Assembly (NCBI GenBank): GCA_038063815.1
Contig: JBBTUJ010000005.1
Span: 4,875 to 68,874, forward strand
Length of the DNA stretch: 64,000 bases
Origin: Patescibacteria group bacterium
GTDB taxonomy: Bacteria > Patescibacteriota > Minisyncoccia > Phycocordibacterales > EsbW-18
Direction of reading: 5' to 3'
Position numbers and translations under genes: made by a program. This document shows positions 3,363 to 29,493 of this stretch, piece by piece (within the stretch, counting starts at the first letter, position 1; every line of letters begins with the position of its first letter). Under the pieces are notes generated by a model. The model saw nothing but the letters and a program-made list of their open reading frames with translations, was not told the DNA's origin and made no database searches.

Positions 3363-4697
3363 TCAGAGAATGTCGTGTACGCTAAATCCTCCTTGCGCCC
3401 TGATACGCGACACGTAGCCAGTGATTGCGAGAATGAGGAGGAGTGGAGTGATGGGTACCAAAAAACCATTCGCAAGCGATATCGAATCGAAACTTGAGAG
3501 TGTTGCTGTTGAGATGATCGCAACGAAGATGTATACCGTCAGAAGGAATACAAGGAGAGAGAACCCGCGAATCCGTAGCCGGATACATGTCACAAGCGCT
3601 CCAACCAAAACCGCAAGGTGTAGTATGGTGAGCAGAATCTTAACAATAAAAATATTTCGTTCTTTTGGTGAGAAATCTGCAATCCCCTGCTGTCCTCTTA
3701 GAATCTCAACACCACGTTCTTTGTACGAGAATGTCGCGCCACTATCGAGCGTGTGAAGCCCGACAGGAAATGAGAACACCCTCACAAAACCTTCCCGGAA
3801 CATCGGCTCACCGATAGCAAAAAGCGAGCGCGTTGTCTTCCGTATGCTCTCGGGCCTAAGATAGTTCTGCTCACCTTTTGCGATAACAGGCGCAACTGAA
3901 AAATCTTCGTACAGGAATATATTCCTGTATGTCCACGGCAGGATAACGAGAGCGACAGCGGAGCACATGATCGCAACAATCACCACACGTTTTCCTATTC
4001 TCTCCCGCTTTTCTTTTTCACGAACACCATCGACGAGAGCCCACAGGGCGAACACAATAGGCAAGAAAAGGGCGATAACATCAGTAAGCGCGCCGAGACC
4101 GAGAAGGATGCCGCAGACGAGTGCTCGCCAGACACTTTCTTCTTTGAGTGCCCGGATAAAAAAGAAGACCGCGGCCGTAAATACAACGGCATACAAGAGA
4201 GCCGAACTTCCGTGCCGTATCTGAAAGAGGAACGATGGCCACACCGCTGCAAGAAGCGCCACAATCCAAGGGATCCTACCACTTGCCACTTCTTTTGCGA
4301 TCGCATAGATAAGAAGTACGAACACGATGTGGAGCAGTATCTGCGAGATTGCGAGCGCTGTTCCGCTTGACCCGATCGTTAGGTAGATGAACGCGAGGTA
4401 CAAGGGCCAACCCGGAGCGTTCCGACCGAACTCGTGCAGAACAAAATCTCCATCAAGGATATGGTGTGCTGCGGCATCGTAGAGCGGAAAATCTTGATTC
4501 AATCGCAGATCATCTACCCGAGGAACCATGACGCACGTCGCAACAACGCACGCGAGAAGAAGAGCGAGGAGAAGCGCCCGATGATCTCTATACCAATGAT
4601 TCGTACGGTCCATACAAATATGAGCGTGACAGATGTATATGATACACTCGACCGATATATGCAGCCAGACATATCTCGCATCGTCGATGCCCATCAC
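3363..4697 (-). CDS. polytopic membrane glycosyltransferase, GT-C fold (PMT/ArnT-like, GT39/GT83-type), putative
   Basis: 444 aa, multiple hydrophobic helices, N-terminal DDARY motif resembling the loop-1 DE motif of PMT/ArnT enzymes. Start uncertain: the GTG/ATG at 4697 would overlap the divergent gene, and MDRTNHW at 4613 is an alternative. Confidence 0.4.
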   Translation of the reverse strand: MMGIDDARYVWLHISVECIIYICHAHICMDRTNHWYRDHRALLLALLLACVVATCVMVPRVDDLRLNQDFPLYDAAAHHILDGDFVLHEFGRNAPGWPLYLAFIYLTIGSSGTALAISQILLHIVFVLLIYAIAKEVASGRIPWIVALLAAVWPSFLFQIRHGSSALLYAVVFTAAVFFFIRALKEESVWRALVCGILLGLGALTDVIALFLPIVFALWALVDGVREKEKRERIGKRVVIVAIMCSAVALVILPWTYRNIFLYEDFSVAPVIAKGEQNYLRPESIRKTTRSLFAIGEPMFREGFVRVFSFPVGLHTLDSGATFSYKERGVEILRGQQGIADFSPKERNIFIVKILLTILHLAVLVGALVTCIRLRIRGFSLLVFLLTVYIFVAIISTATLSSFDSISLANGFLVPITPLLLILAITGYVSRIRAQGGFSVHDIL

Positions 4698-25975: not shown

Positions 25976-25983
25976 GCTGTTGT

Positions 25984-26046
25984 GGGCGCGGAGGGACTCG
26001 GACCCTCAAGGATTGCTCCATACGCTCCTGAAGCTAGCGCGCCCAG
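25984..26046 (-). other. tRNA-like fragment (acceptor stem + T-arm only, no D-arm and no proper anticodon arm)
   Basis: Minus RNA reads GGGCGCG...GAGGG-TCCGAGT-CCCTC-CGCGCCC-A. A 7 bp acceptor and 5 bp T-stem pair perfectly, but only 30 nt lie between them and the T-loop has C at position 54. Confidence 0.3.
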
Positions 26047-26058
26047 CACTAAACTCTG

Positions 26059-26142
26059 TGCCGCGGGGGAGACTCGAACTCCCATTCCCTTACGAGAACT
26101 ACGACCTGAACGTAGCGCGTCTACCAATTTCGCCACCGCGGC
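26059..26142 (-). tRNA. tRNA-Leu (anticodon CAG), type II with long variable arm
   Basis: GCCGCGG-TG-GCG-AAATTGGTAGA-CGC-G-CTACG-TTCAGGT-CGTAG-(long var)-GGGAG-TTCGAGT-CTCCC-CGCGGC-A. CCA is not encoded. Confidence 0.85.
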
Positions 26143-26175
26143 AGTTTAGTGCTGGGTAAATCTACCAATTTTTAT

Positions 26176-26234
26176 CCCGTCACTAACGTTGGCATTCTAC
26201 GCGTGCTTTCGCACAATGCCAATGTTAGTGCGGG
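26176..26234. repeat. GC-rich palindromic hairpin element, homologous to the stem of the 16S V2 insertion
   Basis: CCCGTCACTAACGTTGGCATT...AATGCCAATGTTAGTGCGGG is a 20 bp stem with one bulge and one G.U pair. Compare 28512-28533 and 28625-28646. Confidence 0.6.
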
Positions 26235-26910: not shown

Positions 26911-27257
26911 CGCTTTGCCATCCTCGCGGATGACCATACATGTGTCTTTTCTTTTGTTCCGTTCATACCGGTCTTTCCCGGCTTGTCCGATTGCTTTAAG
27001 GATATTCAATCATAATCCATCACGTACTCAATTGAGGTACATGATATCGACCGCCTTGATCAAGTATTCAAAAACTGAACACTCGACGATTTGTCATTGG
27101 ACAAAATCCACGAGCAGCTTCCGCTACCCGTGCCTTGTTACGCCTTAACCCTAGTCACCGAACTTGCCTTAGAACATGAGAACCATGTGCTTCGGGCATT
27201 CCCGGCTCCTTTGACTTGGCGGGCGGTGAGTACAAGGCTCGAGAACGTATTCACCGT

Positions 27258-27289
<32 letters not shown>

Positions 27290-27452
27290 ACTTCATGAGG
27301 TCGAGTTGCAGACCTCAATCCGAACTGAGGATGGCTTTCTAAGGATTGGCTCGGGATTACTCCGTCGCGACCTGTTGTACCACCCATTGTATCACGTGTG
27401 TAGCCCGAGGCATCAGAGGGACATGCTGACTTGGCGTCATCCCCGCCTTCCT

Positions 27453-27594
27453 CCCAGCACGAAGCGTACGATGTACGCTTCAAGTTAAAAGTTTGTAAAG
27501 TTATAAAGTTTATAAAGTATTTTTTGTATTCACTTTACGAACTTGATGAACTTTTTACTTTCTACTTGAAGCGCTTCACGCGCTTTGTGCTGGG
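27453..27594. repeat. 16S V7 (h40-loop) insertion containing a copy of the AT-rich dispersed repeat, flanked by GC palindromes
   Basis: CCCAGCAC...GTGCTGGG closes the stem. Inside lie GAAGCGTACGATGTACGCTTC and GAAGCGCTTC hairpins plus the AAGTTATAAAGTTTATAAAGT...GATGAACTTTTTACTTT repeat. Confidence 0.6.
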
Positions 27595-28511
27595 CGGTCT
27601 CGTCTGACACTTATAACAGACGATAGGGGTTGCGTTCGTTACCCCACTTAAGGGAACAGCTCAAGCCACGAACTGACGACAGCCATGCATCACCTGTCCA
27701 GCCGCCCGAAGGCTCGTAAAGTTTCCTCTACGATTCGTCTGGATGTCTAGCCTCGGTGAGGTTCTTCGTTTAGCATCGAATTAAACCACATGATCCACCG
27801 CTTGTGCGAGCCCCCGTCTATTCCTTTGAGTTTTAACCTTGCGGTCGTACTACCCAGGCGGATCACTTAACGCGTTAGCTTCGCCTCTCAGAGGGTCGAT
27901 ACTCCGAAAAGCTAGTGATCATCGTTTAGGGCCAGGACTACTGGGGTATCTAATCCCATTCGCTCCCCTGGCTTTCGTGTTTCAGCGTCAGATATATGCT
28001 AGTGTACTGCCTTCGCTTTTGGCGTTCCCCACGATATCAACGGATTTCACCCCTACACCGTGAGTTCCGTACACCCCTCATACTCTCGTAGTTGTACCGT
28101 TTCCCATGCGGATTTCTGGTTAGGCCAGAAGATTTGACACAGGACTAATACAACCGCCTACACACCCTTTACGCCCAATAATTCCGGATAACGCTCGGGG
28201 CTCTCGTATTACCGCTGCTGCTGGCACGAGATTAGCAGCCCCTTATTCATCGGGTACCGTCAAAATTTCTTCCCCGATAAAAGATCTTTACGTCCCGAAG
28301 GACTTCATCAATCACGCGGCGTCGCTCCGTCACACTTTCGTGCATTGCGGAAGGTTCTTGACTGCAGCCACCCGTAGGTGTCTGGACAGTGTCTCAGTTC
28401 CAGTGGTGGGGGTCAGGCTCTCACCTCCCCTACGCGTCATAGCCTTGGTAAGCCATTACCTTACCAACTAGCTGATACGAGGCAGGCCGTTCTAGAAGCG
28501 ATAAATCTTTA

Positions 28512-28646
28512 CCCGCACACTAACTTTGGCATTGTCTTCAGTACGCCGAGATCATTGTCACATTATCTGTGATAACTATTCGGGAATAACGATAATAAAC
28601 CTTCCACACAACTGCCTTCGGCGTAATGCCAAAGTTAGTGTGCGGG
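28512..28646. repeat. 16S V2 insertion forming a 22 bp perfect stem (CCCGCACACTAACTTTGGCATT / AATGCCAAAGTTAGTGTGCGGG), with a partial third copy at 28664-28690
   Basis: A perfect 22 bp inverted repeat encloses 91 nt, with an inner ACGCCGA/TCGGCGT extension. It is absent from E. coli-type V2. Confidence 0.65.
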
Positions 28647-29042
28647 TTTACTCCGATTTGAAGACCATTACAAAGTTAGTGAGCGGGACCATCAGGTATT
28701 AGCCCATCTTTCGATGAGTTATTCCTGACTTCTAGGTACGTTCCCACCCGTTACTACCCCGTTTGCCGGTTGCCCTTGCGGGCCCCCTTGACTTGCATGC
28801 CTTAACCACGCCGCCAGCGTTCATCCTGAGCTAGGATCAAACTCTACATAAGAATCACAAATTGCTTTGTGATTTTTCTGAACGGAACAAAAGAAACAAC
28901 ACATGTATATCGTTCTTTGTTCTTTTTTTCCAGCACGTAGCTCATGCGTGCCGGACTTAGATACTTTACTTGTTTAGGAATAGACGAGTACTCCCAACAC
29001 TTATTCGAGTGCTGGAAAATCTTGTACTCTCTACTTATTTTA

Positions 29043-29343
29043 TCCAGCACTTAACTTTGCTCTGTCATGGTGAGAAACAATGGTGTATCTCTACCTTATA
29101 CAGAATAAAAGCGGCGCACTCTACTTTGGTGCAACAACTAATTTGCGACAAAGAATTTTTGACCACAATGCAGGTCGTTCTCTTGCCACACAGGGCTCAG
29201 AGTGGCAACTCGTATATTACGAGGCGTTTCGCGCAGAGAAAGATGCTCGTGACCGTGAACATCAAATAAAGTTTCACGGTCAAGCGAAACGACGACTTAA
29301 ACAACGGCTCAAAAATTCTTTAGAGCAAAGTTAAGTGCTGGAT
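29043..29343 (+). mobile_element. putative mini mobile cassette: GIY-YIG gene bounded by perfect 21 bp terminal inverted repeats
   Basis: Left inverted repeat ATCCAGCACTTAACTTTGCTC at 29043-29063. Right inverted repeat GAGCAAAGTTAAGTGCTGGAT at 29323-29343, which contains the gene's stop codon. Confidence 0.4.
29080..29334 (+). CDS. GIY-YIG nuclease family protein (UPF0213/YhbQ-like)
   Basis: VYLYLIQNKSGALYFGATTNLRQRIFDHN...WQLVYYEAF...REHQIK is the GIY-YIG signature. Confidence 0.75.
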   Translation: MVYLYLIQNKSGALYFGATTNLRQRIFDHNAGRSLATQGSEWQLVYYEAFRAEKDARDREHQIKFHGQAKRRLKQRLKNSLEQS

Positions 29344-29493
29344 GAATTGTCAAAGTCCATCAAAAACCCCACCTCAGCCAGTCACGGCCGAAATGGGGTG
29401 ACTAGTTGAATGGACCTCCATTATATTCATAGAAAGGATTGTGTCAAGTTTCAGTGAATCCCTTGCAAACGCCTTTATCTCGCCCTTTTCACT

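What the first reader, a model, noticed from the sequence alone, without database searches (positions are those of the whole stretch)
28925..29343. GIY-YIG nuclease minigene bounded by perfect 21 bp terminal inverted repeats upstream of the 16S gene
The 84 aa GIY-YIG ORF (29080-29334) is flanked by ATCCAGCACTTAACTTTGCTC (29043-29063) and its exact reverse complement (29323-29343), which includes the stop codon. A second inverted repeat pair, TTCCAGCAC...GTGCTGGAA (28927-29017), lies just outside. GIY-YIG enzymes are the catalytic modules of homing endonucleases. A TIR-bounded roughly 300 bp unit carrying only this gene next to an rRNA gene looks like a minimal homing or mobile cassette rather than a housekeeping YhbQ-like gene.
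Basis: seen in the sequence. Interest (0 to 1): 0.55.

Follow-up and report, generated by a model that had tools for sequence, protein, structure and literature searches.

The report
Stem-bounded GIY-YIG nuclease gene cassette
A 300-base unit, one small nuclease gene closed by a base-paired stem, recurs in many bacterial phyla, often inside ribosomal RNA genes, and may help explain how such rRNA insertions spread.

Summary
This is not a local oddity. In 60 of 85 homologous loci from many phyla, the ORF is bracketed the same way (3 of 830 random placements). The outer core is conserved, (C/T)CC(A/C/G)GCAC, and the inner arms covary. In 29 loci the cassette sits at helix tips inside 16S or 23S rRNA genes, and in two it replaces RNase P RNA helix P3. 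It is always sense to the host RNA. In others it lies in a DGR spacer or between genes. Mismatches in the stem are G·T six times more often than A·C, so pairing is selected in the sense RNA. ORF-less hairpins with the same ends occupy the same rRNA sites. The window holds five such relatives in its 16S/tRNA cluster. The protein resembles Slx1/UPF0213 and is under purifying selection. E. coli yhbQ has no such repeat. Best reading: an evolutionarily mobile intervening-sequence-type cassette whose "terminal inverted repeat" is an RNA closing stem. The window copy is atypical: it lies about 190 nt upstream of the 16S 5' end, antisense to it. Nuclease activity, RNase III excision and the mobility mechanism are untested.

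The parts
29042..29063 (+). Left (5') arm of the closing stem, ATCCAGCACTTAACTTTGCTCT. The conserved outer core TCCAGCAC lies at 29043-29050. It pairs with 29322-29343.
29322..29343 (+). Right (3') arm, AGAGCAAAGTTAAGTGCTGGAT. It covers the last four codons and the TAA stop codon (29332-29334).
   Evidence: In the window and its closest relatives the stop codon lies directly before GTGCTGG; across the family the arm covers or closely follows the stop.
29080..29334 (+). 84-aa minimal GIY-YIG nuclease ORF of the Slx1/UPF0213 type.
   Evidence: Pfam PF01541, E 9.3e-13. PDB sequence hits 1zg2 and 1ywl. AlphaFold2 model with pLDDT 87, closest to 1zg2 and Slx1. Invariant Y3, Y5, Y15, G17, R25, H29 and E60. 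dN/dS 0.27 against L005.
29069..29074 (+). Shine-Dalgarno-like GGTGAG, 5 nt before the ATG. In the predicted fold it is paired with codons 4-6.
   Evidence: Read from the sequence. Minimum-free-energy fold. Inferred, not tested.
29150..29162 (+). 5' strand of a second, inner helix (AAAGAATTTTTGA, ORF positions 71-83). It pairs with 29309-29321.
   Evidence: (I4). The helix is found at the same ORF position, with compensatory changes, in 13 of 58 cassettes against 1 of 58 controls.
29309..29321 (+). 3' strand of the inner helix (TCAAAAATTCTTT). It stacks directly under the outer stem.
28926..29019 (.). Degenerate ORF-less relative. An 11-bp perfect repeat, TTTTCCAGCAC / GTGCTGGAAAA, with the same core, and 72 nt between the arms.
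   Evidence: (I9). The left arm is not conserved in L005. The two ends do not pair in the predicted fold.
28511..28687 (-). ORF-less insertion in the 16S helix-10 region. It has a 23-bp perfect repeat, ACCCGCACACTAACTTTGGCATT (28511-28533 / 28625-28647), and a third arm copy at 28659-28687. It is absent from the 16S of the closest relative, L005.
   Evidence: (I1, I3, D2).
27454..27593 (-). Second ORF-less insertion in the 16S gene (E. coli positions about 1126-1174). It is a long hairpin closed by CCCAGCAC / GTGCTGGG.
26172..26233 (-). ORF-less hairpin of the same family (TCCCGCACTAACATTGGCATT ... AATGCCAACGTTAGTGACGGGA), between tRNA-Ile and tRNA-Leu.
26042..26156 (-). 14-bp perfect repeat, CCCAGCACTAAACT / AGTTTAGTGCTGGG, that brackets the tRNA-Leu(CAG) gene (26058-26142).
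27096..28852 (-). 16S rRNA gene. It is the host stable-RNA gene next to the cassette, and the cassette ORF is antisense to it.
   Evidence: Rfam RF00177, 1362.9 bits.
28880..28908 (-). Leader strand of the 16S processing stem. It pairs with the trailer at 26936-26964. The pre-16S transcript must therefore start upstream of it, towards the cassette.
   Evidence: Read from the sequence. Inferred from the known architecture of rRNA precursors.
29420..29447 (-). Perfect sigma-70 promoter, TTGACA-16-TATAAT, pointing towards the cassette and the 16S gene. Both hexamers are conserved in L005 although the spacer has diverged. It is the only strong promoter candidate upstream of the 16S leader.

Best explanation
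The 302-bp unit at 29042-29343 belongs to a widespread family of compact gene cassettes. Each carries one minimal, Slx1/UPF0213-like GIY-YIG nuclease gene closed by an RNA stem.

The stem is made of the 5' untranslated region and the 3' end of the ORF, including the stop codon. Its outer 8 bp are conserved, (C/T)CC(A/C/G)GCAC paired with its complement. The inner 8-14 bp covary.

The family behaves like the ORF-bearing form of rRNA intervening sequences. Its members replace the tips of peripheral helices in stable-RNA genes (16S, 23S, RNase P P3), always in the sense orientation. The stem continues the host helix, so the insert is tolerated. By analogy with classical intervening sequences it is probably cut out by RNase III. 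The cut-out piece would be a stem-closed mRNA for the nuclease.

The nuclease is inferred to promote spread of the cassette, and of ORF-less hairpin derivatives with the same ends. The likely route is cleavage of hairpin-forming target DNA followed by repair from a cassette-bearing copy.

Shown here:
- the cassette architecture;
- its recurrence in unrelated sites and phyla;
- covariation and a G·U bias;
- sense-only orientation in RNA genes;
- presence/absence differences between close relatives, for the ORF-less relatives and the IVP cassette but not for the GIY-YIG cassette itself;
- purifying selection on the protein.

Inferred, not shown: RNase III excision, nuclease activity, and the mobility mechanism.

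The window copy is an atypical member. It lies about 190 nt upstream of the 16S 5' end. It is probably inside the 16S leader transcript but antisense to it. It sits next to five ORF-less relatives in the same 16S/tRNA cluster.
For: - **Recurrence of the bracketing repeat.** It is seen in distant homologues. In 60 of 85 loci the repeat score is at least 12, against 3 of 830 random placements.
- **Covariation.** 94.5% of cells are paired. 18 of 20 pairs change on both sides. The covariation score is 0.71, against 0.18 in shuffles and 0.08-0.14 when partners are slid. A second inner helix with compensatory changes occurs in the window's subclade. The RNA fold z-score is -8.9.
- **Sense-RNA signal.** Non-Watson-Crick positions in the stems are G·T 36 and A·C 6. 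The window stem grows from 22 to 26 bp only in the ORF-sense strand.
- **Location.** 29 loci are inside 16S or 23S genes at about ten different sites, all sense. In L068 the cassette replaces RNase P RNA helix P3, and L071 has the same arrangement.
- **Mobility.** Cassettes 75-84% identical have unrelated flanks, across three phyla and within one genome. One cassette sits between avd and the template repeat of a DGR. Between the window and L005 there are clean insertions or deletions of ORF-less relatives and of an IVP cassette.
- **ORF-less derivatives.** 30 hairpins with the same core are found, against 0 in shuffles. Some occupy rRNA sites that hold ORF-bearing cassettes elsewhere. Many keep the stop-codon triplet next to the core.
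- **Protein.** Pfam match, catalytic residues, Slx1/UPF0213 fold, dN/dS 0.04-0.27.
- **Contrast.** E. coli yhbQ has no repeat.
- **Literature.** GIY-YIG ORFs occur in rRNA insertions of Candidate Phyla Radiation (CPR) bacteria that are not introns, and classical intervening sequences are excised by RNase III (PMC11270868).
Against: - The window copy is not inside a mature rRNA, and it is antisense to the 16S gene. It cannot be translated from the pre-rRNA. Only a weak + strand promoter candidate was found (TGGAAA-17-TATTTT, 29013-29041).
- No empty site for this particular copy was found.
- RNase III has no known need for a conserved 8-bp sequence, so the conserved core is not explained by excision alone.
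- About half of the loci are not in any known RNA gene.
- GIY-YIG enzymes only hydrolyse DNA, so a complete mobility pathway needs host repair. None of this is demonstrated.
- The loci in the covariation alignment were selected for having a repeat. This inflates the percentage paired, though not the diversity of pair types.
Confidence: 0.7

Rival explanations
1. A DNA-level transposon. The inverted repeats are terminal repeats that the GIY-YIG protein recognises and cuts as its own transposase. The short hairpins are its MITEs (miniature non-autonomous derivatives).
For: - The outer 8-bp core is conserved whatever the insertion site.
- ORF-less copies with the same ends are frequent.
- A 137-bp insertion in the window's 16S gene, relative to L005, is flanked by a possible 2-bp TT duplication. 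That would fit the 2-nt staggered cuts known for GIY-YIG enzymes (the cut geometry is from general knowledge).
- Cassettes in one genome have unrelated flanks.
Against: - The G·T to A·C asymmetry of 36:6 and the G·U extensions of the stem make sense only for a single sense strand.
- All 31 copies in stable-RNA genes are sense. A symmetric repeat-bounded transposon would land in both orientations.
- The inner arms diverge freely while staying complementary.
- No consistent target-site duplication is seen at the window cassette or at the L006 or rRNA sites, where the helix tip is replaced rather than split.
- GIY-YIG nucleases are not known to catalyse strand transfer (general knowledge).
Confidence: 0.12
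2. A host-serving system, not a selfish one. The GIY-YIG protein is a sequence- and structure-specific processing enzyme for RNA stems that carry the CCCAGCAC core. These include the rRNA inserts, the stem around tRNA-Leu, and its own mRNA. The repeat around its gene would then be an autoregulatory copy of its substrate.
For: - Six stems with the same core cluster within 3.3 kb of the window's 16S/tRNA region and nowhere else in the 64 kb. One of them brackets an intact tRNA-Leu gene.
- The core is conserved beyond what pairing requires.
- The protein is under purifying selection.
- The pairing signal is at the RNA level.
- A link between prokaryotic Slx1-like domains and RNA metabolism has been suggested from a TrmH fusion (PMC1564403).
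Against: - Characterised GIY-YIG and Slx1 enzymes cut DNA (PMC1564403; Slx1 structures).
- The patchy distribution, the unrelated flanks and the presence in only some close relatives fit a selfish element better.
- Many genomes would carry the stems only because the element brought them.
- This reading does not exclude mobility.
Confidence: 0.12
3. An ordinary small gene whose flanking repeat is a chance or purely local feature, for example a terminator-like or mRNA-stabilising hairpin peculiar to this locus.
For: No identical copy of the 22-mer exists elsewhere in the window. The only close relative with the same locus has the same arrangement.
Against: The repeat is conserved, with covariation, in 60 of 85 homologous loci from many phyla, against 3 of 830 controls. 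0 matches are expected by chance in the window.
Confidence: 0.01

Closest known systems
rRNA intervening sequences (IVSs) excised by RNase III, including ORF-bearing ones such as the Coxiella and Leptospira 23S IVS that encodes the S23p / 23S_rRNA_IVP protein
   Same: Both are inserts at the tips of peripheral rRNA helices (23S helices 9, 25, 45 and others). Both are bounded by complementary ends that extend the host helix. Both are sporadically distributed and sometimes carry one small ORF. Many family members found here sit at exactly these sites. L005 has an IVP-encoding cassette of the same design in the pre-16S leader.
   Different: The cargo here is a GIY-YIG nuclease, not the four-helix-bundle IVP protein. 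The ends carry a conserved 8-bp core across phyla. Members also occur outside rRNA: RNase P P3, a DGR spacer, intergenic sites, and the window's 16S leader in antisense. Excision by RNase III is not shown for any member.
GIY-YIG ORFs in rRNA insertions of Candidate Phyla Radiation (CPR) bacteria (Tsurumaki et al. 2024, J Bacteriol, PMC11270868; that paper also cites an earlier study for them as its reference 2)
   Same: Same protein family and same host group as the window. That paper reports GIY-YIG ORFs in 16S and 23S insertions that are not group I or II introns, scattered over several sites.
   Different: A term search of that paper found no occurrence of 'inverted repeat'. It considers the GIY-YIG ORFs to lie outside the context of homing. 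The conserved stem and core, the ORF-less derivatives, the non-CPR hosts and the non-rRNA sites are not described there. My literature searches cover open-access text only.
GIY-YIG homing endonucleases (I-TevI, Seg proteins; NCBIfam TIGR01453)
   Same: They share the catalytic GIY-YIG domain and are selfish genes embedded in a host sequence that is removed at the RNA level. The proposed logic is also the same: a double-strand break followed by copying.
   Different: The protein here has no DNA-binding domain (84 aa against about 245 aa). It has no hit to TIGR01453, and two homologues score far below the cut-off. Its fold is nearer to Slx1 than to I-TevI. There is no self-splicing intron. The family is essentially absent from viral contigs.
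Prokaryotic Slx1-like / UPF0213 proteins (E. coli YhbQ, B. halodurans BH0048 = 1zg2, E. faecalis EF2693 = 1ywl) and eukaryotic Slx1
   Same: All are minimal stand-alone GIY-YIG domains, and these are the best sequence and fold matches. Slx1 is a structure-specific nuclease for branched DNA, which fits targeting of hairpin-forming DNA.
   Different: E. coli yhbQ is a fixed chromosomal gene with no flanking repeat and is only 32% identical. The cassette subfamily is defined by its stem and its scattered locations.
REP elements with their RAYT transposase (REPtrons), and IS200/IS605 hairpin ends
   Same: Both have a single small gene bracketed by inverted copies of a hairpin-forming repeat that is also scattered in ORF-less form. 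Both recognise structure rather than long terminal repeats.
   Different: Those systems use HUH/Y1 transposases that act on single-stranded DNA. Here the enzyme is a GIY-YIG hydrolase, and the pairing signal points to RNA. The ORF-less copies cluster in stable-RNA genes rather than in extragenic space.

Membership tests
GIY-YIG nuclease superfamily (Pfam PF01541) | Profile match above the curated threshold | tested here: met
   48.7 bits against a cut-off of 22.6, E 9.3e-13, residues 2-69.
GIY-YIG nuclease superfamily (Pfam PF01541) | Conserved catalytic residues: Tyr of 'GIY', Tyr-x-Gly of 'YIG', then Arg, His and Glu | tested here: met
   Y3, Y5, Y15, G17, R25, H29 and E60 are invariant in the 16-sequence alignment A2. 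Their assignment to catalytic roles is by analogy with I-TevI and UvrC.
GIY-YIG nuclease superfamily (Pfam PF01541) | Beta-beta-alpha-beta-alpha core fold | tested here: met
   AlphaFold2 model with pLDDT 87 and elements E2-8, E14-19, H22-30, E43-50, H53-65. Foldseek hits to 1zg2, Slx1 and I-TevI.
Prokaryotic Slx1-like / UPF0213 (YhbQ) minimal GIY-YIG proteins | Stand-alone domain of about 80-100 aa whose nearest relatives are UPF0213 proteins and Slx1 | tested here: met
   84 aa. PDB sequence hits are 1zg2 (E 2.4e-5) and 1ywl. The fold search ranks 1zg2, 4xm5, 1ywl, 6seh and 7cq2 ahead of I-TevI. 32% identity to E. coli YhbQ.
Prokaryotic Slx1-like / UPF0213 (YhbQ) minimal GIY-YIG proteins | Absence of the C-terminal catalytic Asn of the UvrC/homing-endonuclease lineage (PMC1564403) | tested here: inconclusive
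   An Asn (N79) is present in the window protein but is replaced by Arg in several homologues in A2. No structural superposition was made to decide whether the positions are equivalent.
GIY-YIG homing endonucleases (I-TevI type, TIGR01453) | Catalytic domain joined to a C-terminal DNA-binding domain | tested here: not met
   The protein is 84 aa with only the catalytic domain. The window protein has no hit to TIGR01453, and two homologues score 18-21 bits against a cut-off of 56.
GIY-YIG homing endonucleases (I-TevI type, TIGR01453) | Encoded in a self-splicing intron or free-standing in a phage genome | tested here: not met
   No intron family matches the window at Rfam gathering thresholds, nor any of the 45 related loci scanned. 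Only 3 weak relatives were found in 2.9 million viral contigs.
GIY-YIG homing endonucleases (I-TevI type, TIGR01453) | Cleaves the cassette-less allele and is copied into it | not testable with these tools
   This needs a nuclease assay and a homing assay.
rRNA intervening sequence (IVS) | Extra sequence at a helix tip inside a 16S or 23S gene, relative to the consensus | tested here: not met
   This holds for the window cassette: it lies about 190 nt upstream of the 16S 5' end and is antisense. The feature is met by 29 other family members and by two ORF-less relatives inside the window's own 16S gene.
rRNA intervening sequence (IVS) | Complementary ends that form a stem | tested here: met
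   22 bp perfect, or 26 bp with G·U pairs. Covariation across the family.
rRNA intervening sequence (IVS) | Excised by RNase III without religation, which gives fragmented rRNA | not testable with these tools
   No RNA data are available. This is inferred from classical IVSs (PMC11270868).
Terminal-repeat-bounded DNA transposon / MITE | Encodes a transposase (DDE, HUH, serine or tyrosine recombinase) | tested here: not met
   The only ORF is a GIY-YIG hydrolase domain.
Terminal-repeat-bounded DNA transposon / MITE | Target-site duplication of fixed length at the ends | tested here: inconclusive
   None is evident at 29042 / 29343. There is a possible TT duplication at the 16S helix-10 insert. 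In L006 the TAAAG next to both ends is ambiguous. At rRNA sites the helix tip is replaced, not duplicated.
Terminal-repeat-bounded DNA transposon / MITE | Insertion in either orientation | tested here: not met
   All 31 copies in stable-RNA genes are sense. Next to protein genes the count is 18 co-oriented to 7 opposed, on each side.

The most novel reading that the evidence does not exclude
Many short ORF-less rRNA intervening sequences may be the non-autonomous derivatives of these cassettes. An Slx1-like GIY-YIG nuclease would recognise the conserved CCCAGCAC stem, or hairpin-forming target DNA, and mobilise both forms in trans into helix tips of stable-RNA genes. This would be a structure-targeted mobile element class that uses host RNA processing in place of self-splicing. 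It would give a mechanism for the long-unexplained spread of intervening sequences.
Probability: 0.3. Interest if true: 0.85.

Novelty: new variant of a known kind. Interest (0 to 1): 0.66.

Why it matters
Intervening sequences in rRNA have been known for decades. They are said to spread horizontally (PMC11270868), but I know of no established mechanism. The only ORF family commonly linked to them (IVP/S23p) has no known activity.

This work shows a nuclease-bearing family with a conserved terminal stem in at least a dozen phyla. It occupies the classical intervening-sequence sites and comes with ORF-less derivatives that share its ends. That gives a concrete hypothesis, testable in cultured carriers such as Methylomicrobium sp. 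wino1, Paracoccus isoporae DSM 22220 and Deferribacter thermophilus.

There are practical consequences too:
- these cassettes inflate and fragment rRNA and RNase P RNA genes, which affects 16S/23S annotation and phylogeny, especially in Patescibacteria;
- they supply new stop codons to neighbouring genes;
- they can sit inside DGR RNA.

A minimal 84-aa nuclease that recognises a defined stem would also be of interest to enzymologists.

Tried and rejected
- **Empty site for the window copy.** RecG neighbours at about 70% identity (L094, L095) have no 16S gene or GIY-YIG gene upstream, so synteny is lost and no empty site could be read. The single metagenome scan, using the 16S processing-stem sequence, returned only the same organism.
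- **Phage carriage.** Only 3 weak relatives were found in viral contigs.
- **Known RNA families.** No Rfam family covers the cassette, and no group I or II intron was found. One Rfam call with 20 sources failed.
- **Own promoter for the ORF.** Only a weak TGGAAA-17-TATTTT candidate exists at 29013-29041.
- **16S promoter between the cassette and the 16S gene.** None was found.
- **Target-site duplication.** No consistent pattern.
- **Co-orientation with neighbouring protein genes.** 18 to 7, no different from ordinary gene-order bias.
- **ORF remnants inside the ORF-less inserts of the window.** None by tblastn.
- **Is the repeat general to UPF0213?** No. E. coli yhbQ lacks it.
- **Literature.** Searches for this architecture, for GIY-YIG in DGRs and for YhbQ found nothing beyond PMC11270868. 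One search failed on term length.
Full report
**1. The observation**

The 84-aa ORF at 29080-29334 (+) is a GIY-YIG domain (Pfam E 9.3e-13). It is bracketed by a perfect 22-bp inverted repeat: ATCCAGCACTTAACTTTGCTCT at 29042-29063 and its reverse complement at 29322-29343.

- The 22-mer occurs nowhere else in the window with up to 3 mismatches, against 0 expected.
- The right arm covers the stop codon.
- The outer 11-bp pair TTTTCCAGCAC / GTGCTGGAAAA (28926-28936 / 29009-29019) is also real.
- TCCAGCAC is over-represented, 7 occurrences against 1.25 expected, and 4 of the 7 lie in this 420-bp stretch.
- The 16S gene is on the minus strand (27096-28852). The ORF therefore lies upstream of the 16S 5' end and is divergent from it.
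- The window matches a Hainich groundwater contig. Its closest RecG relatives are Patescibacteria, labelled Campbellbacteria or Paceibacterota.

**2. The repeat belongs to the gene family, not to the locus**

A 95%-identical homologue (L005) has the identical arms. Homologues at 46-64% identity, in quite different surroundings, have a repeat at the same place with the same outer end but different inner sequence:
- TCCAGCACTTAATTCGGGAT (L006, 20/20);
- TCCAGCACTTAATTTCGG (L010, 18/18);
- TCCGGCACTCGTTTCAG... (L011);
- CCCAGCACTTTCT... (L012).

A scan of one genome per GTDB species found 381 relatives, and I kept the best 80 loci. Including the earlier loci, 60 of 85 have a bracketing repeat with score at least 12. 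Only 3 of 830 random placements of the same geometry in the same loci reach that score.

When anchored on the core, the first 8 pairs read (C/T)CC(A/C/G)GCAC and are 93-100% Watson-Crick. The next seven columns each carry three or four different Watson-Crick pair types and are still 91-100% paired.

On a 49-sequence alignment:
- 94.5% of cells pair;
- 18 of 20 pairs change on both sides;
- the covariation score is 0.71, against 0.18 for shuffles (0 of 500 reach it) and 0.08-0.14 when partners are slid.

The loci were chosen for having a repeat, which inflates the percentage paired but not the diversity of pair types.

**3. The pairing is selected in the sense-strand RNA**

Inside the stems, non-Watson-Crick positions are G·T 36 times and A·C 6 times. 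G·T on the ORF strand is G·U in the sense transcript. A·C would be G·U only in the antisense transcript. Both arise by transitions, so the asymmetry points to the sense RNA.

- Many stems are extended at both ends by G·U pairs. One example is the conserved UUGA/UUGA extension in L019, L022 and L024.
- The window stem is 26 bp in the sense strand but 22 bp in the antisense strand.
- The window cassette folds far better than shuffles, z = -8.9.
- A second helix pairs ORF positions 71-83 with the codons just before the right arm. It recurs at the same ORF position with fully compensatory sequences in 13 of 58 cassettes, against 1 of 58 controls. Examples are AAAGAATTTTTGA, GAGAATTTCTGAGC, GACGGCTTGCAC and GCTTTGCCGCA.

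**4. Where the cassettes sit**

In 29 loci the cassette interrupts a 16S or 23S gene, at about ten different places (E. coli numbering):
- 23S about 131-177, 270-290, 540-553 (helix 25, the commonest site), 1164-1185 (helix 45), 1704-1770, 1866-1875 and 2789-2821;
- 16S about 66-100 and 1440-1481.

In every case the ORF is sense to the rRNA. The flanks continue the host helix. For example, AGTGGGAG|CCGAGCAC...GTGCTCGG|TGACCGCG replaces the tip of helix 25.

In the Saccharibacteria locus L068 the cassette replaces helix P3 of RNase P RNA, again in sense. L071 has the same arrangement.

Other copies lie between avd and the template repeat of a diversity-generating retroelement, where the left arm supplies the stop codon of avd. 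Others lie in short intergenic gaps.

The literature I could search already records GIY-YIG ORFs in non-intron rRNA insertions of Candidate Phyla Radiation (CPR) bacteria. It judges them to lie outside the context of homing, and a term search of the paper found no occurrence of "inverted repeat" (PMC11270868).

**5. Evidence for mobility**

- Cassettes 81-84% identical in nucleotide sequence occur with unrelated flanks in MAGs assigned to Dehalococcoidia, WOR-3 and Fidelibacterota (L064, L072, L043). Two contigs of one Parcubacteria genome do the same (L014, L024).
- Two rRNA operons of one Cloacimonadales genome carry identical copies (L054, L056).
- The family is large, with 3,548 clusters at 50% identity at E ≤ 1e-10. 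It is almost absent from viral contigs.
- The ORF is under purifying selection in nine of nine measurable pairs, with dN/dS 0.04-0.27, and 0.27 for the window against L005.
- ORF-less hairpins of 58-116 nt with the same core are common in the same loci, 30 against 0 in shuffled sequence. Many still carry the stop-codon triplet next to the core.
- Some of these hairpins occupy rRNA sites that hold ORF-bearing cassettes in other genomes: 16S about 1413-1485, 23S about 1854-1888, and 23S about 2789-2806.

**6. The window itself**

Besides the cassette and the degenerate 11-bp pair, the same 3.3-kb 16S/tRNA cluster holds four more relatives:
- a 177-nt insert in 16S helix 10 (28511-28687) with a 23-bp perfect repeat, ACCCGCACACTAACTTTGGCATT, and a third arm copy; it is cleanly absent from the L005 16S gene;
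- a second 16S insert closed by CCCAGCAC / GTGCTGGG (27454-27593);
- a hairpin between tRNA-Ile and tRNA-Leu (26172-26233);
- a 14-bp repeat of the same type that brackets the intact tRNA-Leu gene (26042-26156).

None occurs elsewhere in the 64 kb at the same threshold. The window holds only one GIY-YIG ORF.

Conversely, L005 has a 75-bp ORF-less hairpin (TACCCAGCACATACTTTGCCAT...) and a stem-bounded cassette of about 510 bp that encodes a 23S_rRNA_IVP protein. The window has neither. At the site of the IVP cassette the window has only an 18-nt hairpin.

**7. Why the window copy is atypical**

The leader strand of the 16S processing stem (28880-28908) pairs with a trailer at 26936-26964. The pre-16S transcript must therefore start further upstream, on the cassette side.

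The only strong promoter there is a perfect TTGACA-16-TATAAT on the minus strand at 29447-29420. Its hexamers are conserved in L005 although the spacer has diverged. It is followed by a terminator-like hairpin (29399-29366).

If this promoter drives the 16S gene, the cassette lies in the leader transcript in antisense. Its 22 perfect pairs would still form there, but the ORF could not be translated from that RNA. On the + strand I found only a weak promoter candidate. How this copy is expressed is unresolved.

**8. The protein**

- Residues Y3, Y5, Y15, G17, R25, H29 and E60 are invariant.
- The nearest solved sequences are the UPF0213 proteins 1zg2 and 1ywl.
- The AlphaFold2 model (pLDDT 87) matches 1zg2 and the Slx1 nuclease domain better than I-TevI.
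- Prokaryotic Slx1-like proteins are described as the minimal form of the GIY-YIG domain. Slx1 is a structure-specific nuclease (PMC1564403).
- E. coli YhbQ is 32% identical and has no flanking repeat.
- There is no DNA-binding domain, and nothing passes the threshold of the group I intron endonuclease family.

**9. Interpretation**

Best supported (0.7): an intervening-sequence-type cassette that has moved between sites and genomes over evolutionary time. Its "terminal inverted repeat" is an RNA closing stem that lets it sit at helix tips of stable RNAs. It is probably cut out by RNase III. Its Slx1-like nuclease is inferred to drive spread of ORF-bearing and ORF-less forms, possibly by cutting hairpin-forming DNA.

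The conserved 8-bp core is not explained by RNase III. It suggests recognition by the encoded protein, on either DNA or RNA. That keeps two rivals alive at about 0.12 each: a DNA-level transposon, and a stem-specific processing enzyme.

**10. Limits**

- There are no RNA data and no biochemistry.
- No empty site was found for this copy.
- Most loci come from MAGs, and some have doubtful bin taxonomy.
- The literature check is limited to open-access text.

Noticed in passing
window 26042-26156 (minus strand): The intact tRNA-Leu(CAG) gene (26058-26142) is bracketed by a perfect 14-bp inverted repeat, CCCAGCACTAAACT / AGTTTAGTGCTGGG, of the same family as the cassette arms. It looks as if the tRNA were the cargo of such a stem. 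I have no explanation for this.
   Followed up: partly
window 28511-28687 and 27454-27593 (inside the 16S gene, minus strand): The 16S gene carries two ORF-less inserts closed by the same core motif. The helix-10 insert has three arm copies and is absent from the 16S gene of the 95%-related L005.
   Followed up: yes
window 29360-29447 (minus strand): A perfect consensus promoter, TTGACA-16-TATAAT (29447-29420), is followed within about 15 nt by a 15-pair terminator-like hairpin and a U-run (29399-29361). It could be the start of the 16S leader with an attenuator or boxB-like hairpin, or a small RNA of about 50 nt. The promoter hexamers are conserved in L005.
   Followed up: partly
window 28880-28908 and 26936-26964: A leader/trailer complementarity of about 29 bp flanks the 16S gene (GAACGGAACAAAAGAAA..ACACATGTAT). 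It is the presumed RNase III processing stem of the pre-16S RNA. No 23S gene follows within the window, so the rRNA genes appear unlinked.
   Followed up: partly
L005 392-900: The closest relative has a cassette of about 510 bp between the 16S processing-stem leader and the 16S 5' end. It encodes a 129-aa 23S_rRNA_IVP (four-helix-bundle) protein, sense to the 16S gene, and is bounded by its own, different inverted repeat (GGAGTTGGAAGTTGGAAG... / ...CTTCCAACCCC). At that position the window has only the 18-nt hairpin TCACAAATTGCTTTGTGA (about 28851-28876).
   Followed up: partly
L006-L010 (for example L006 5646-7683): In several groundwater contigs the GIY-YIG cassette sits inside a diversity-generating retroelement, between bAvd and the template repeat and reverse transcriptase. 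The left arm provides the last three codons and the stop codon of avd.
   Followed up: partly
L068 3947-4579; L071 about 3809-4437: In two Saccharibacteria MAGs the cassette replaces helix P3 of RNase P RNA, in sense. In L068 the P1 and P2 5' strands lie upstream of it and the P4 sequence AGGAAAGTCC follows it directly. If the cassette is excised, RNase P RNA would be in two pieces.
   Followed up: partly
L033, L057, L060, L087 (rRNA operons): Single rRNA operons carry three to five separate inserts of this family, ORF-bearing and ORF-less. L033 also has an unexamined 438-nt insert at 23S helix 45 (3561-4000), and L057 has a 492-nt insert at 23S position about 1866.
   Followed up: no
window 25980-26042 (minus strand): Directly after the right arm of the tRNA-Leu stem lies a tRNA-like sequence (GGGCGCGCTAGCTTCAGGAGCG...GGGTCCGAGTCCCTCCGCGCCCA). 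It has a 7-bp acceptor-type pairing, but neither ARAGORN nor Rfam calls it.
   Followed up: no
L017 2459-2514: A type III hammerhead ribozyme hit just above the Rfam threshold (49.1 bits against 48.5), about 1.4 kb from a cassette in a gammaproteobacterial MAG.
   Followed up: no
L016, L020, L042, L050, L065: In loci where the ORF is not bracketed by a repeat, a complete hairpin with the same core lies directly before or after the ORF. In L065 there is one on each side. This is a variant arrangement of ORF and stem.
   Followed up: partly
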